DNA of 64,000 nucleotides, from IMG/VR virus record IMGVR_UViG_3300025913_000019; one strand, written 5' to 3'. This DNA comes from a virus (lineage: Duplodnaviria > Caudoviricetes). Both the position numbers and the translations under genes were made by a program. Positions 12,153-53,673 of this stretch are shown piece by piece (within the stretch, counting starts at the first letter, position 1; each line of letters opens with the position of its first letter). The notes beneath the pieces are model-generated. The model did not search any database. It had not been told where the DNA came from and saw only the letters and a list, made by a program, of their open reading frames with translations.

Positions 12153-12536
12153 ATGCAACCCGTTCTTCCGGACCCGGCGACAAGCCCGCAGGCTTCGCTC
12201 ACGGTCGAGATCGAAGCCTTCGCCGGCATGAACCAGATCAGGCGCAGTCTCGGCCGCGCAGTCGGTCTCTGGATCGGCACGAACCAGAACGAGAAGTTCG
12301 CCGTCATGCAGCCCGGCGACACCATCACCATCAGCGACAACATCAAGGCGTTCGTTGCCTACTCCGATGGTCCTCTCACCATTACGGTAAATGGAGATGG
12401 CGGCCCCGTAATCGCGATGCAGCAGATGCTGGTGCTCGATGCGCCTGCCACGACTGGCATCACGATCCACAACGCCGGGTCCTCGGTCGTGAATTTCAAC
12501 ATCGACTGGCTGGCGATCCCGGTGCCCGCTGTCTGA
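12153..12536 (+). CDS. Hypothetical protein (beta-rich)
   Basis: AAGGAG RBS, in-operon position, codon pattern. Confidence 0.6.
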   Translation: MQPVLPDPATSPQASLTVEIEAFAGMNQIRRSLGRAVGLWIGTNQNEKFAVMQPGDTITISDNIKAFVAYSDGPLTITVNGDGGPVIAMQQMLVLDAPATTGITIHNAGSSVVNFNIDWLAIPVPAV

Positions 12537-47733: not shown

Positions 47734-47978
47734 TGAGCAACAAAAGCAAAGACGATGATGTGGTCACCACGCTGTGGGTGGTCTGTGCCATCATGGGATT
47801 CGTCTTCGTGATCGACAAGATCCTGACGGCGCCGCCCGATGTGCACGTACCGCCACCTGTCCCGACCGTGCAGACCACGTGTCACGGTGGCCAGGTCTGG
47901 ACCAGCCACTACTTCAGGGGCAGCAACGTGGCGGACAACATGATCCTGGTCAACGGGCAGCCCGTCGACTGTAAATAA
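47733..47978 (+). CDS. Small single-TM protein with two-Cys outer domain (paralogue B)
   Basis: TGATG-coupled start 47733; TM helix then TCHGGQVWT...ILVNGQPVDC. Confidence 0.6.
   Translation: MSNKSKDDDVVTTLWVVCAIMGFVFVIDKILTAPPDVHVPPPVPTVQTTCHGGQVWTSHYFRGSNVADNMILVNGQPVDCK
47970..47977 (+). promoter_or_regulatory. Putative phage promoter TGTAAATA upstream of clamp loader
   Basis: Recurring 8-mer, 25 nt before the 48003 start; forces rare codons TGT AAA. Confidence 0.5.
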
Positions 47979-49140: not shown

Positions 49141-49782
49141 ATGAGCAGCCACACCAACGATGCGTACCGCGAAGGTTGGGATCGGATCTTCGGTCGGTTC
49201 GCCAAGGCATACCTCGATGCCCAGGTCAGCCACATCATCAGGCACGGTCCCGATGTGGCTGTCAACATGTACCCGGATAGGCCGACGTTCGAGGAGATCG
49301 TGGCTCGACTCGAGACCGTGATCTTCGTCACCAACAAGCTCGACACGTCGTTGGTACCGAAGCACGGAGCCTGCGTCCCGTACTACGTGAACGTGAAGGA
49401 CAAGCACATCGCGCGCTGGCACGAGATCATCGTCAAGCACTGGGCCGGATGCTACTTGAACTGCTCAGTCGACGAGACGCACATGATAGCGGGCCTGCAG
49501 CGTGGCTTCATCGATCTCGAGCGCCACGCTCTCACCGAGGAAGAGCACTTCACGCTGGTACCGAAGCCCCAGTGCGAGGCAGAACGTGATGAAGCCTGGC
49601 GCACGGGACTCAACGTCATTCGCAACATCGTGGGCCGCGGTCTCGTTCTTTGGGAGGGGCTGCTGTGGGTTGATGGCCGGTGCCGGATACCGATGCTGTT
49701 CCCACACGACAAGCGCGAAGCAGAGATCCGAGCAACGCTGCGTGCGCTGATCAGTCGTGGCATTCTCCCGCCCAGGGACTAG
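49141..49782 (+). CDS. Hypothetical protein with N-terminal NDAYREGWDRIFG motif
   Basis: Coupled ORF; motif shared with the next gene. Confidence 0.6.
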   Translation: MSSHTNDAYREGWDRIFGRFAKAYLDAQVSHIIRHGPDVAVNMYPDRPTFEEIVARLETVIFVTNKLDTSLVPKHGACVPYYVNVKDKHIARWHEIIVKHWAGCYLNCSVDETHMIAGLQRGFIDLERHALTEEEHFTLVPKPQCEAERDEAWRTGLNVIRNIVGRGLVLWEGLLWVDGRCRIPMLFPHDKREAEIRATLRALISRGILPPRD

Positions 49783-49816: not shown

Positions 49817-50140
49817 ATGAGCCGCAAGAACGACATCACGGGCGCCGAGCTGGTGACGAAGGCCAACACCAAGGAGTACGCCGAGGGCTACGACCGCATC
49901 TTCGGCAAGCCGAAGGAACGAGACCCGTTGGCCGGGACCCTGAAGTGCTTGCAGATCGAGGTCAATGGCAAGCTCTACAACGTCGGCAACCCGTCGATGA
50001 CGAAGGAGAAGATCCTCAAGCTGGCCGGCATGACCGACGGTCGCGTCACCTTCCGGCGCGGCGGCTACGACGTGGGTCTCAACGATGGCGAGTCGATGCC
50101 GGTCTTCCAAGGCCAGCGCTTCTTCGTCAAGGAGCGCTAG
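49817..50140 (+). CDS. Small protein with C-terminal multi-ubiquitin (beta-grasp)-like domain
   Basis: Start reassigned to ATG 49817 (AAGG RBS). IEVNGKLYNV...MTKEKILKLAG...VTFRRGG...LNDGESMPVFQGQRFFV fits the Multi_ubiq pattern by eye. Confidence 0.55.
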   Translation: MSRKNDITGAELVTKANTKEYAEGYDRIFGKPKERDPLAGTLKCLQIEVNGKLYNVGNPSMTKEKILKLAGMTDGRVTFRRGGYDVGLNDGESMPVFQGQRFFVKER

Positions 50141-50530
50141 ATGAGCAGGTGTGATTCGTGCAAGCACTTCTACCAGAACGCCGTGGGTAATGCGCGTTGC
50201 GGCGCTGACCAGATGTTCCAGGACTTCAGCTGCCACACCGGACTGCCGGCCAACGTGAACCCGGTCGGCTGCAAGGCCTACTCGATCCACGAGCTGGACG
50301 AGCTGCGCAAGGTCGTCTACAAGCGGGTCATGTTCGGCACCTCCTACATGCAGGTGAAAGACCTGCCCGATGGCGAGTTCACGATCCCGCACCGTCGCTA
50401 CCTCGACGACAAGGACCCGCGGTTCACGGCTACGGTCGAGGACCAGGTGCGGACCCTCATGGTGGCCGGTGTCGTGGCTGCCGACGTGATCGCGGCTGAC
50501 AAGTACTACTTCGAGGAGTCGAAGAAATGA
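50141..50530 (+). CDS. Hypothetical protein with Cys-rich N-terminus
   Basis: CDSC...C...C...C in the first 45 aa; AAGGAG RBS. Confidence 0.6.
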   Translation: MSRCDSCKHFYQNAVGNARCGADQMFQDFSCHTGLPANVNPVGCKAYSIHELDELRKVVYKRVMFGTSYMQVKDLPDGEFTIPHRRYLDDKDPRFTATVEDQVRTLMVAGVVAADVIAADKYYFEESKK

Positions 50531-51300
50531 TCCACGACTACAACCCCATGCGGAACCTGCCGGCGGCATTGCTGAACGAGGACGGCCACAAGTCGCCGAT
50601 CACGATCAAGCGCCAGTTCGGCATCGCCATGCCCGAGGACTTCAACGGCAAGTGGTTCCACTCCGTCGGCGCGTTTCTGGCGGACCCGAAGCGCCAGTCC
50701 GGGACCTGGGTCATCACGTCGGACGCGTGGTCGTTCGAGCCCGTCTACGTGGCCTGGAACGATGTGAGCCGCGAGTGGATCAACGGCGGGATCGAGGGTC
50801 GCAACCTGTCGAACCCGACCATCTACGTCAACGGTCTGACGTTCAAGGCGCCGGCGGCGGGTCTGATCGATCGCTCGACGCTGATGACGATGATGAGCTT
50901 CACCGGCGATCCCGAGAACTACAAGTTCGAGTACAGGGTCGGCACGGGCTTCGCCGAGATCACGACGCACATGGTCCAGACGGCACACCAGATGCACTTC
51001 AAGGCCACGCCGCGCGATCCGAAGATCGTGGTCGCCGACCTGCTCTCCTGGCTGGCGGGTCTCAACTGCGTGCGTGCGCAGCTGACGAAGGAAGTCGTGG
51101 GCCCGAGAACCATGGAGACCTTCGCGCGTGAGAACTGGTTGACCGACACGGACTTCAGGGAGATCCAGCGCGCCGGCGTCTTCTGGCGTGTGAACATCTG
51201 CATGGACTGGAAATCCGACGGGCACTTCTTCTTCGGCGCAACTCCGCAGCGCACGCTGCAGCAGGCCAAGGACAAGCACACCCGTGGAGAGCTGAAGTGA
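50527..51300 (+). CDS. Protein with internal multi-ubiquitin-like domain (aa ~97-164)
   Basis: TIYVNG.TF...IDRSTLMTM...DPENYKFEYRVG...MHFKATP fits the Multi_ubiq pattern by eye. Confidence 0.5.
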   Translation: MIHDYNPMRNLPAALLNEDGHKSPITIKRQFGIAMPEDFNGKWFHSVGAFLADPKRQSGTWVITSDAWSFEPVYVAWNDVSREWINGGIEGRNLSNPTIYVNGLTFKAPAAGLIDRSTLMTMMSFTGDPENYKFEYRVGTGFAEITTHMVQTAHQMHFKATPRDPKIVVADLLSWLAGLNCVRAQLTKEVVGPRTMETFARENWLTDTDFREIQRAGVFWRVNICMDWKSDGHFFFGATPQRTLQQAKDKHTRGELK

Positions 51301-53422: not shown

Positions 53423-53673
53423 CGTTGGTGAACAAGTACCAGGAAGTCGAGGACCTGATCGTGGCCGCGATCCGGCGCGGCCAGAAGACCGATCATGTAA
53501 ATAACGGGGTGATCTGGAACGCGATGTCCGAAGTGACGGAGCGCGACGACAACCCGTATGTCGCCAACGCCATCAAGACCCGGATGCAGAAGTTGCGCGA
53601 CCAGAAGATCATCCAGCACTGCCGCACCAACGGCTGGTCGTTGGTCCCCAAACCCGAACAGGAACAATCATGA
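53419..53673 (+). CDS. Small hypothetical protein, possible winged helix
   Basis: GTGA-coupled start; ...IKTRMQKLRDQKII...NGW wing-like end. Confidence 0.45.
   Translation: MTLVNKYQEVEDLIVAAIRRGQKTDHVNNGVIWNAMSEVTERDDNPYVANAIKTRMQKLRDQKIIQHCRTNGWSLVPKPEQEQS

What the first reader, a model, noticed from the sequence alone, without database searches (positions are those of the whole stretch)
49817..51300. Two phage-encoded ubiquitin-like (Multi_ubiq/beta-grasp) domains without conjugation machinery: candidate decoys against bacterial ubiquitination defence
Seen: the C-terminal ~60 aa of 49817..50140 (IEVNGKLYNV...EKILKLAG...VTFRRGG...LNDGESMPVFQGQRFFV) and an internal segment of 50527..51300 (nt ~50815-51018: TIYVNGLTF...DPENYKFEYRVG...MHFKATP) both follow the I.VNG.../Y.V.Y..G/F.V pattern of bacterial multi-ubiquitin domains. 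A Cys-rich ORF lies between them. Neither has a free C-terminal Gly (one ends FVKER, the other is internal), and no E1/E2/JAB gene is visible. Established: Bil-type bacterial defence conjugates a Ubl onto phage tail fibres. Inference: this fibre-rich phage may carry non-conjugatable Ubl mimics that jam host E1/E2/DUB enzymes.
Basis: partly seen in the sequence, partly recalled or inferred. Interest (0 to 1): 0.75.

Follow-up and report, generated by a model that had tools for sequence, protein, structure and literature searches.

The report
Phage gene with BubA-like ubiquitin fold
A large soil phage carries one real copy, not two, of the ubiquitin-like domain that bacteria use in their "Bub/Bil" protein-tagging systems; it lacks the reactive tail and any tagging enzymes, so it may be a mimic that interferes with that host system, but this is untested.

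Summary
One of the two claimed ubiquitin-like (Ubl) domains is real. Residues 45-105 of the 107-aa protein at 49817-50140 pass Pfam Multi_ubiq (E 3e-7, above the cut-off). They also match a profile built only from bacterial Type II Bub Ubls (E 7e-6). They fold at pLDDT 94 into a beta-grasp whose best solved matches are BubA structures (TM 0.85).

The second claimed domain, inside 50527-51300, fails every profile test. That protein is an orphan that could not be folded.

No E1, E2 or JAB gene turned up in the window, in 34 kb upstream, in 10 kb downstream or in two relatives. About 18.5 kb downstream, outside the window, the phage carries two DUF6527 (BubE-type peptidase) genes.

The Ubl sits behind a 35-aa N-terminal leader shared by many small phage proteins. 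A relative has the same leader at the same locus fused to a zinc ribbon instead.

The tail after the last strand is short and not conserved. Note that the nearest bacterial relatives end in Ser, not Gly, so a missing Gly alone is not diagnostic.

My best reading, at about 0.4, is a non-reactive BubA mimic that binds Bub-type enzymes.

The scan noted the same domain in the overlapping window of this genome. It also recorded many bacterial Bub operons elsewhere, but no other phage-borne one.

The parts
49817..50140 (+). Gene for the 107-aa protein P0001: N-terminal leader, linker, one Multi_ubiq beta-grasp and a 3-residue tail
   Evidence: ORF with GC3 0.88. The ATG at 49817 is the start because all homologues begin M-x-x-x-ND[IV]TG. 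Among listed natural variants, 5 are synonymous and 2 non-synonymous.
49817..49921 (+). N-terminal leader of about 35 aa (ND[IV]TG..L..K......Y.EG[YW]DRIFG), shared by many small phage proteins with unrelated C-termini
   Evidence: 21 of 27 hits in the exhaustive search match only this part. It has no Pfam or PHROG family. 26 of 30 residues are identical to P0005. The same leader is fused to a zinc ribbon at the syntenic locus of relative G003.
49949..50131 (+). Single BubA-type (Multi_ubiq, PF14452) beta-grasp domain, residues 45-105
   Evidence: The ESM Atlas model gives independent support.
50129..50140 (+). C-terminal tail K-E-R plus stop. It has no Gly and none of the R-[TS]-x-[KQR]-S tail of Type II BubA. 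P0005 has KDKPW here.
50141..50530 (+). Adjacent 129-aa Cys-rich protein P0002 (CxxC plus 3 further Cys in residues 4-44). Function unknown, and whether it belongs to the system is unshown. It is absent at the syntenic place in G003.
50527..51300 (+). 257-aa orphan protein P0003. The claimed internal Ubl (about 50815-51018) is not supported.
49141..49782 (+). Upstream 213-aa protein P0004. Its N-terminus carries only the second half of the leader motif (YREGWDRIFG).
47970..47977 (+). TGTAAATA, a promoter-like motif heading the run from the clamp loader through P0004, P0001, P0002 and P0003
   Evidence: 5 matches on the + strand against 0.09 expected; the next one is at 53496.

Best explanation
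Shown:
- 49817-50140 encodes an accessory phage protein in the replication/early gene block.
- The domain has lost the reactive C-terminal tail.
- The phage encodes no E1 or E2 in the DNA that could be examined.
- The genome also carries two DUF6527 (BubE-type Ser/His peptidase) genes in its virion operon.

Inferred:
- The protein cannot be conjugated. It acts as a non-reactive look-alike of the host's Ubl.
- It occupies the Ubl-binding site of Bub/Bil-type enzymes (the E1 adenylation domain, the E2, or the DUF6527 peptidase), so host Ubl tagging during infection is blunted.
- The phage's own DUF6527 peptidases may strip off any tags that are still attached.

The second claimed Ubl, in 50527-51300, is not part of this.
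For: Identity of the domain:
- Pfam PF14452 E 3e-7, above the cut-off.
- A profile built only from bacterial domains gives E 6.6e-6.
- The AF2 model has pLDDT 94.
- Best solved matches are E. coli ZDHYS365 Type II BubA 9cd2 (TM 0.85, rmsd 1.8 A, 25% identity), then 8u38, 9d5a and 9ea8_B.

What that family does in bacteria:
- In G004, G357 and G372 the Multi_ubiq gene sits directly beside DUF6791+ThiF (BubBD) and DUF6527 (BubE).

Loss of the reactive end:
- The phage tails are KER and KDKPW. Eight bacterial Type II BubA proteins share a conserved 6-residue tail ending in Ser.

No conjugation enzymes:
- None in 71 window ORFs or in 36 ORFs of the 35 kb upstream.
- None in the precomputed Pfam hits for 10 kb downstream.
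- ThiF, DUF6791, Prok-E2_E and Prok-JAB are not found in G001, G002 or G003.

Other Bub-related genes in the genome:
- A 107-aa PF20137 gene and a 230-aa DUF6527-like gene lie about 18.5 and 22.6 kb downstream.
- Orthologues sit at the syntenic place in G003 and G002.
- The phage-type DUF6527 keeps the invariant Ser and His of operon BubE.

Accessory, variable locus:
- The Ubl is absent from G002 and is replaced by a zinc ribbon behind the same leader in G003.
- Weak Lar-like restriction-alleviation hits lie next door in two relatives.

From the literature:
- The authors of the Bil study speculate that phage tail-assembly DUB domains are counter-defence (10.1101/2023.09.04.556158).
Against: - No binding or inhibition has been shown.
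- An antiviral role for Bub is unproven. Its discoverers found no phage protection in E. coli (10.1101/2024.11.21.623953).
- The host is unknown, and only 13 of 401 sampled Pseudomonadota genomes carry PF14452.
- Stand-alone DUF6527 is common in phages that have no Ubl (287 INPHARED records). G002 and G003 keep it without the Ubl. The co-occurrence here may therefore be coincidence, and the genes are 18 kb apart on opposite strands.
- The leader is far better conserved than the Ubl (26/30 against 26/60 identical to P0005) and carries other cargoes. The shared function may lie in the leader.
- About half of the roughly 212-kb genome was not available, so an E1/E2 elsewhere is not excluded for this phage itself.
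Confidence: 0.4

Rival explanations
1. The N-terminal leader defines the function, for example targeting to a host machine, to the replisome or into the capsid. The beta-grasp is just one of many interchangeable binding or cargo domains, with no connection to ubiquitin-like conjugation.
For: The leader recurs on more than 20 small proteins with unrelated C-termini. G003 has the leader plus a zinc ribbon at the same locus. The leader is much more conserved than the Ubl. The gene is co-oriented with, and probably co-transcribed with, the clamp loader. Beta-grasp domains are versatile binding modules (established knowledge).
Against: The domain is not a generic beta-grasp. It is specifically a member of the conjugation-linked Multi_ubiq family by sequence and structure. 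The genome also holds DUF6527 genes, the other Bub-specific family.
Confidence: 0.3
2. The Ubl is a partner of the phage's own DUF6527 peptidases, acting as a regulator, an activator or a substrate mimic. This would be a phage-internal module, for instance in virion maturation, that does not touch host Bub enzymes.
For: Both families are in one genome. In bacteria BubE acts on BubA (10.1101/2024.11.21.623953). Phage DUF6527 genes lie in virion/tail modules.
Against: The genes are 18 kb apart, on opposite strands and in different expression blocks. G002 and G003, and hundreds of other phages, have DUF6527 without a Ubl. Nothing follows the Ubl that a peptidase could cleave off.
Confidence: 0.12
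3. One reading: both 49817-50140 and 50527-51300 carry Ubl domains and form a selected cluster of Ubl mimics with the Cys-rich protein between them.
For: The three genes are tightly packed (0 and -4 nt spacing). The P0003 segment fits a loose I.VNG / Y.F.Y..G / F.A pattern. The very low-confidence model has a strand-strand-helix-strand-strand-strand order there.
Against: No Pfam hit at E<=10. hhalign probability is 0.1-0.4%, while the same profile finds P0001 at 85%. A third 'I.VNG' ORF, at 12153-12536, is equally negative. P0002 and P0003 are orphans and are absent from the syntenic place in G003; the relative carrying P0005 has no 257-aa gene beside its Ubl.
Confidence: 0.08
4. The phage Ubl is conjugated after all, by host Bub/Bil enzymes or by enzymes in the unseen half of the genome. 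The phage would then tag host or phage proteins for its own ends.
For: Type II BubA relatives also lack a terminal Gly, so the chemistry in this family is not restricted to Gly. About 100 kb of the genome was not examined.
Against: The tail is shorter than in BubA and differs between the two phage homologues (KER against KDKPW). No E1/E2/JAB was found in about 108 kb of this phage or in 185 kb of two relatives.
Confidence: 0.05

Closest known systems
BubA, the Ubl of Type II Bub operons (E. coli ZDHYS365, PDB 9cd2; Citrobacter Type I BubA, PDB 9ea8/9d5a; Ye et al. and Gong et al., bioRxiv 10.1101/2024.11.21.623953 and .623966)
   Same: Same Pfam family (PF14452) and the same beta-grasp. It is the best structural match (TM 0.85, 25% identity). 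Single-domain forms preceded by variable N-terminal regions are known in bacteria; 40% of Bub Ubls have one domain.
   Different: It is encoded by a phage, not in an operon with BubBD/BubCD and BubE. It lacks the roughly 10-residue loop and the conserved reactive tail. It carries a phage-specific N-terminal leader.
BilA, the Ubl of Bil anti-phage systems (Hör et al., 10.1101/2023.09.04.556158; Chambers et al., 10.1101/2023.09.26.559546; Type II BilA, PDB 8u38)
   Same: Type II BilA is also a multi-ubiquitin protein and matches the model at TM 0.84. Bil is the one system of this kind shown to tag a phage tail protein, so it is a plausible target of a mimic.
   Different: Lower sequence identity (17%). 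BilA has a conserved Gly exposed by a JAB peptidase. No BilB, BilC or BilD homologue is in the phage.
Engineered ubiquitin variants (UbVs) that inhibit DUBs and E3s (for example PDB 6cpm, which appears among the fold matches)
   Same: They illustrate how a decoy could work: a non-reactive ubiquitin fold that blocks an enzyme by occupying its ubiquitin-binding site.
   Different: They are man-made. No natural phage counterpart acting on bacterial Ubl enzymes has been described in the literature I could search.
Ubl and JAB/DUB domains of siphophage tail assembly proteins (lambda gpI/gpK type; Iyer, Burroughs and Aravind 2006, cited from memory; discussed in 10.1101/2023.09.04.556158)
   Same: These are phage-borne members of the ubiquitin toolkit, and they have been speculated to counter Ubl tagging of tails.
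   Different: They are structural-module proteins of a different beta-grasp lineage. The best phage tail-assembly match in BFVD has only TM 0.49.
Ubiquitin genes of eukaryotic viruses (baculovirus v-UBI, giant-virus ubiquitins)
   Same: They are virus-encoded copies of the host's tagging protein.
   Different: They are true ubiquitin with a GG end that the host machinery can use. Fold matches to them are only TM 0.5-0.6.

Membership tests
Multi_ubiq (PF14452) / BubA-type beta-grasp domain | Profile match above the curated threshold | tested here: met
   31 bits against a cut-off of 24.5, E 3e-7, residues 46-104. An independent profile built only from bacterial domains gives E 6.6e-6.
Multi_ubiq (PF14452) / BubA-type beta-grasp domain | Beta-grasp fold superposable on solved BubA / multi-ubiquitin structures | tested here: met
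   AF2 pLDDT 94.1. Foldseek matches: 9cd2 TM 0.85 at rmsd 1.8 A, 8u38 0.84, 9d5a 0.83. The ESM Atlas model independently lands on Multi_ubiq clusters. Caveat: the AF2 alignment contained bacterial BubA domains.
Functional Bub/Bil Ubl (a conjugated tag) | Conserved reactive C-terminal tail: Gly in Type I BubA and BilA, and a ...[KQR]-S end in the Type II BubA proteins sampled here | tested here: not met
   P0001 ends FFV-KER and P0005 ends FAV-KDKPW. Eight bacterial proteins end F[ND]V plus 6 residues, the last being Ser.
Functional Bub/Bil Ubl (a conjugated tag) | Encoded next to its E1 and E2 (BubBD or BubAB+BubCD; BilB+BilD) and a peptidase | tested here: not met
   No ThiF, DUF6791, Prok-E2 or JAB in the window, in 35 kb upstream, in 10 kb downstream or in G001-G003. 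DUF6527 genes exist, but 18-23 kb away on the other strand. About half of the genome was not seen. The DUF6791 genome search had no positive control, although the model does detect BubBD by hmmscan.
Anti-defence decoy / enzyme-blocking mimic | Binds the defence enzyme and relieves defence | not testable with these tools
This needs pull-downs, in vitro conjugation assays and plaque assays.
Second Multi_ubiq domain in 50527-51300 | Profile match to PF14452 or to BubA domain profiles | tested here: not met
   No Pfam hit at E<=10, whole or as residues 90-175. hhalign probability 0.13% and 0.38%.
Second Multi_ubiq domain in 50527-51300 | Beta-grasp fold | tested here: inconclusive
   The single-sequence AF2 model has mean pLDDT 33. 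There are no homologues to build an alignment from.
DUF6527 / BubE peptidase (the phage genes beyond the window, judged through orthologue P0033) | Pfam match plus a conserved Ser/His dyad and Cys cluster | tested here: met
   P0033 scores 50 bits against a cut-off of 23.6. Ser50 and His65 are invariant in the alignment with operon BubE, and four Cys are conserved. The window phage's own 107-aa protein is known only from a precomputed Pfam hit; its sequence could not be obtained.

The most novel reading that the evidence does not exclude
The phage carries a two-part kit against Bub/Bil-type protein tagging. The first part is an early-expressed, non-reactive BubA mimic that jams the host E1/E2. 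The second is DUF6527 deconjugases in the virion operon that clean tagged structural proteins. In addition, the 35-aa N-terminal leader would be a general delivery or targeting tag behind which phages swap different counter-defence cargoes. If true, this would be the first evidence that Bub pathways act against phages, and the first natural Ubl-mimic inhibitor of a bacterial ubiquitin-like system.
Probability: 0.2. Interest if true: 0.8.

Novelty: new variant of a known kind. Interest (0 to 1): 0.55.

Why it matters
The biological role of Bub operons is an open question. Their discoverers could not show phage protection. A phage that has picked up look-alikes of two Bub-specific parts (the Ubl and the DUF6527 peptidase) but none of the conjugating enzymes is circumstantial evidence that phages meet these systems.

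It also supplies a concrete reagent. A 66-residue domain can be added to the published in vitro BubA conjugation and BubE cleavage assays, or expressed in Bub/Bil-carrying strains.

Separately, the conserved leader with interchangeable C-terminal domains marks a family of small phage proteins that no database describes.

Tried and rejected
- AF2 of P0003 without an alignment gave pLDDT 33, which is unusable. The ESM Atlas holds no model or neighbours for P0003 and nothing informative for P0002.
- tblastn of P0002 and P0003 against 50,697 phage records found no match.
- Complex prediction of the P0001 Ubl domain with the DUF6527 protein P0033 of relative G003, plus Zn, gave 'no answer' (score 0.02). 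This is neither for nor against binding. P0033 was only a stand-in, because the window phage's own DUF6527 sequence could not be fetched.
- The samples holding the window phage's own contigs downstream of the window were too large to yield DNA, and the metagenome scan returned only relatives.
- No RNA holder was listed among public runs, so expression could not be examined.
- I tried to assign the phage domain to the first, second or third BubA domain class with class HMMs. The result was contradictory: P0005 scores best with class 3 and P0001 with class 2. No claim is made.
- A first MAFFT alignment mixing leader fragments with Ubl domains misaligned them (A4) and was discarded.
- The four long repeat proteins that hit residues 25-100 in the exhaustive search are not Multi_ubiq by Pfam and were set aside as spurious.
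- P0035 was checked as a possible DUF6527 of the phage that carries P0005. It belongs to an unrelated 62-kb phage.
Full report
THE DNA. The window is part of a phage genome of about 62% GC. Contigs that carry the gene reach 212 kb.
- The left third and the minus-strand middle hold virion genes: baseplate gp25 and V, tail-collar fibre, Peptidase_S74, M23 peptidase, and four ORFs of 946-1558 aa.
- From 42.8 kb onward the + strand holds replication and nucleotide-metabolism genes: clamp loader, dNMP kinase, SbcC-like, PD-(D/E)XK nuclease and helicase.
- The finding lies in this second block.
- The nearest held record, G001 (IMG/VR, 91 kb), is nearly identical over the locus and extends 34 kb upstream of the window.
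- The phage recurs in rhizosphere and soil metagenomes from several studies.

THE GENES. Three ORFs are packed end to end: 49817-50140 (P0001, 107 aa), 50141-50530 (P0002, 129 aa) and 50527-51300 (P0003, 257 aa).
- All three have GC3 of 0.88-0.91 against 0.38-0.43 at codon position 2.
- Among the differences listed when contigs of four other soil and rhizosphere runs were laid on the region, synonymous changes outnumber non-synonymous ones: 5:2 in P0001, 6:3 in P0002 and 5:2 in P0003.
- I take all three to be real genes.
- A motif, KGTAAATA, occurs five times on the + strand against 0.09 expected. The copy at 47970 precedes the clamp loader and the next is at 53496, so the three genes probably share a transcription unit with the clamp loader.

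THE FIRST UBL IS REAL.
- P0001 residues 46-104 match Pfam Multi_ubiq (PF14452) at E 3e-7 and 31 bits, above the gathering score of 24.5.
- As an independent test I collected bona fide bacterial domains. PF14452 is present in 13 of 401 sampled Pseudomonadota genomes.
- In three of those genomes I checked the neighbours. The gene order is Multi_ubiq x3, then DUF6791+ThiF, then DUF6527, which is a Type II Bub operon (BubA, BubBD, BubE).
- A profile of 25 such domains, with no phage sequence in it, finds P0001 residues 45-105 at E 6.6e-6 and 85% probability.
- With that alignment AlphaFold2 folds residues 42-107 at mean pLDDT 94 into a two-strand, helix, four-strand beta-grasp.
- The best solved matches are the E. 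coli ZDHYS365 multi-ubiquitin protein 9cd2 (TM 0.85, rmsd 1.8 A, 25% identity), then 8u38, 9d5a, 9d59, 9d5b and Citrobacter BubA 9ea8_B. Ordinary ubiquitin follows at TM of about 0.5.
- The ESM Atlas's own single-sequence model also lands on Multi_ubiq and Multi_ubiq+Prok-E2_E clusters.
- Nothing comparable exists among catalogued viral protein models; the best TM there is 0.5-0.6.

THE SECOND UBL IS NOT SUPPORTED.
- P0003 has no Pfam hit at E<=10, either whole or as residues 90-175.
- The Multi_ubiq profiles that detect P0001 give P0003 probabilities of 0.13% and 0.38%, aligning only nine columns.
- BLASTP between the two proteins aligns nothing in that segment.
A third ORF carrying 'I.VNG' (12153-12536) is equally negative.
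- P0003 is an orphan, with only one homologue at 98% identity. It therefore could not be folded (pLDDT 33), so a beta-grasp there is unsupported rather than excluded.
- P0002 and P0003 are missing from the syntenic place in relative G003. The relative that carries the other Ubl homologue has no 257-aa gene nearby.

ARCHITECTURE OF P0001.
- The exhaustive search of 1.84 billion representatives found one full-length relative, P0005 (54% identity). About twenty small proteins match only residues 1-40.
- This N-terminal leader (ND[IV]TG..L..K...Y.EG[YW]DRIFG) has no Pfam or PHROG family. It is followed in different proteins by unrelated tails, several of them Cys-rich.
- Between P0001 and P0005 the leader is 26/30 identical and the Ubl 26/60.
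- In G003, a relative whose helicase is 69% identical, the gene after the clamp loader and a weakly Lar-like gene encodes the same leader fused to a 30-residue CxxC..CxxC ribbon.
- G002 has neither the leader gene nor a Multi_ubiq domain.
- So the locus is a variable accessory islet with a constant leader and swapped cargo.
- One soil variant carries a compensated frameshift confined to the linker between leader and Ubl.

THE C-TERMINUS.
Type I BubA and BilA do use a conserved Gly (10.1101/2024.11.21.623953; 10.1101/2023.09.26.559546).
- However, the eight complete Type II BubA proteins I recovered end F[ND]V-x-x-[TS]-x-[KQR]-S, with no Gly.
- The stronger argument is that the phage proteins have only 3 or 5 residues after the last strand, and that these differ (KER and KDKPW). 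Nothing like a conserved reactive end is maintained.

CONJUGATION MACHINERY.
- No ThiF/E1, Prok-E2, DUF6791 or JAB family appears among 71 ORFs of the window at E<=1e-4.
- None appears among 36 ORFs of the 35 kb upstream, or in the precomputed Pfam hits for 10 kb downstream.
- Six-frame searches of G001, G002 and G003 with PF00899, PF20590, PF14462 and PF14464 are also negative. These records together span far more of this phage type's genome.
- About half of the window phage's own genome remains unseen.

- Contigs carrying the window's helicase show, 4.7 kb past the window end on the minus strand, a 107-aa gene with a PF20137 (DUF6527/BubE) hit. Its window-equivalent position is 68681-69004.
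- I could not fetch this DNA. The syntenic orthologues in G003 (P0033, 50 bits) and G002 (222 aa, weak) were readable.
- Phage-type DUF6527 proteins keep four Cys and the Ser and His that align with the catalytic dyad region of operon BubE.
- Stand-alone DUF6527 is widespread in phages: 287 INPHARED records, often mislabelled 'ammonia monooxygenase' or 'anaerobic dehydrogenase'. In the one further phage whose gene neighbourhood I read, it lies in a virion or tail module, as it does here.
- I found no paper on phage DUF6527.

INTERPRETATION.
- What is shown: a phage accessory protein with a single BubA-type beta-grasp and no conserved reactive tail, no E1/E2 in reach, and BubE-type peptidase genes elsewhere in the genome.
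- What is inferred: a non-reactive mimic that occupies Ubl-binding sites of Bub/Bil-type enzymes, possibly working alongside phage DUF6527 deconjugases.
- Points in favour: the specificity of the family, the loss of the tail, the accessory islet, and the second Bub-specific family in the same genome.
- Points against: there is no interaction evidence. Bub has no proven antiviral role. The host is unknown, and Bub is present in only about 3% of sampled Pseudomonadota. DUF6527 is common in phages that lack a Ubl. The leader-with-swappable-cargo pattern allows the function to reside in the leader.
- I put the mimic reading at about 0.4, the leader-driven generic reading at 0.3, and the remaining rivals lower.

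NOVELTY.
- The domain family and its bacterial role are known.
- A phage-borne, tail-less, leader-fused single BubA domain is not described in the papers I could search.
- It has only one relative among 1.84 billion representatives and no counterpart among viral structure models.
- The scan had already noted the same domain in the overlapping window of this genome, and many bacterial Bub operons elsewhere, but no other phage case.
- I class it as a new variant of a known kind.

Noticed in passing
window 49817-49921; L134:1408-1602:- (G003); P0006, P0010-P0032: An undescribed N-terminal leader of about 35 aa (ND[IV]TG..L..K...Y.EG[YW]DRIFG-KK) heads many small phage and metagenome proteins with unrelated C-termini. 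At the syntenic locus of a relative it carries a zinc ribbon instead of the Ubl. It has no Pfam or PHROG family.
   Followed up: partly
window 49141-49200 (N-terminus of the 213-aa ORF 49141-49782): The gene just upstream starts with only the second half of the same leader motif (NDAYREGWDRIFGRF). These are the only two matches to that motif in all six frames of the window.
   Followed up: partly
about 68681-69004 (-) and 72758-73450 (-) in window-equivalent coordinates, beyond the window end; L006:984-1313:+ (G003); L007:1027-1695:+ (G002): Two DUF6527 (BubE-type Ser/His peptidase) genes lie in the virion operon of this phage lineage. The family is common in phages (287 INPHARED records, often mislabelled 'ammonia monooxygenase' or 'anaerobic dehydrogenase') and keeps the catalytic Ser and His. 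I found no paper on its role in phages.
   Followed up: partly
L090, L093, L100, L103, L114, L116, L117, L118 (C-termini of bacterial Type II BubA genes): Eight complete Type II BubA proteins from Pseudomonadota end in a conserved ...F[ND]V-x-x-[TS]-x-[KQR]-Ser rather than Gly. This is unexpected for a tag that is activated at its C-terminus, and I did not see it discussed in the Bub papers I read.
   Followed up: partly
window 42766, 47970, 53496, 55034, 60343 (+): KGTAAATA occurs five times, all on the + strand, against 0.09 expected.
   Followed up: partly
L002/L003 (G001 1-35000, upstream of the window): The upstream 35 kb holds a hit to the T7 gp5.9 RecBCD-inhibitor family (PF25708, E 1.3e-5). 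It also holds RecA, Cpn10, MmcB-like and PNKP-phosphatase genes.
   Followed up: no
window 49916-49921: One soil population carries +T after 49916 and -1 at 49921. This is a compensated frameshift that rewrites two residues of the linker between leader and Ubl, which suggests the linker is unconstrained.
   Followed up: no
window 116-42693 (virion block): Two ORFs match DUF2827 very strongly (best E 7.8e-58), and one matches a GH5 cellulase family. I did not work out which ORFs these are or what they do.
   Followed up: no
L134:1604-1966:- (G003), and the 126-aa gene upstream of P0005: Weak, sub-threshold Lar restriction-alleviation hits lie next to the leader-bearing gene in two relatives. 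This hints that the islet after the clamp loader collects counter-defence genes.
   Followed up: partly
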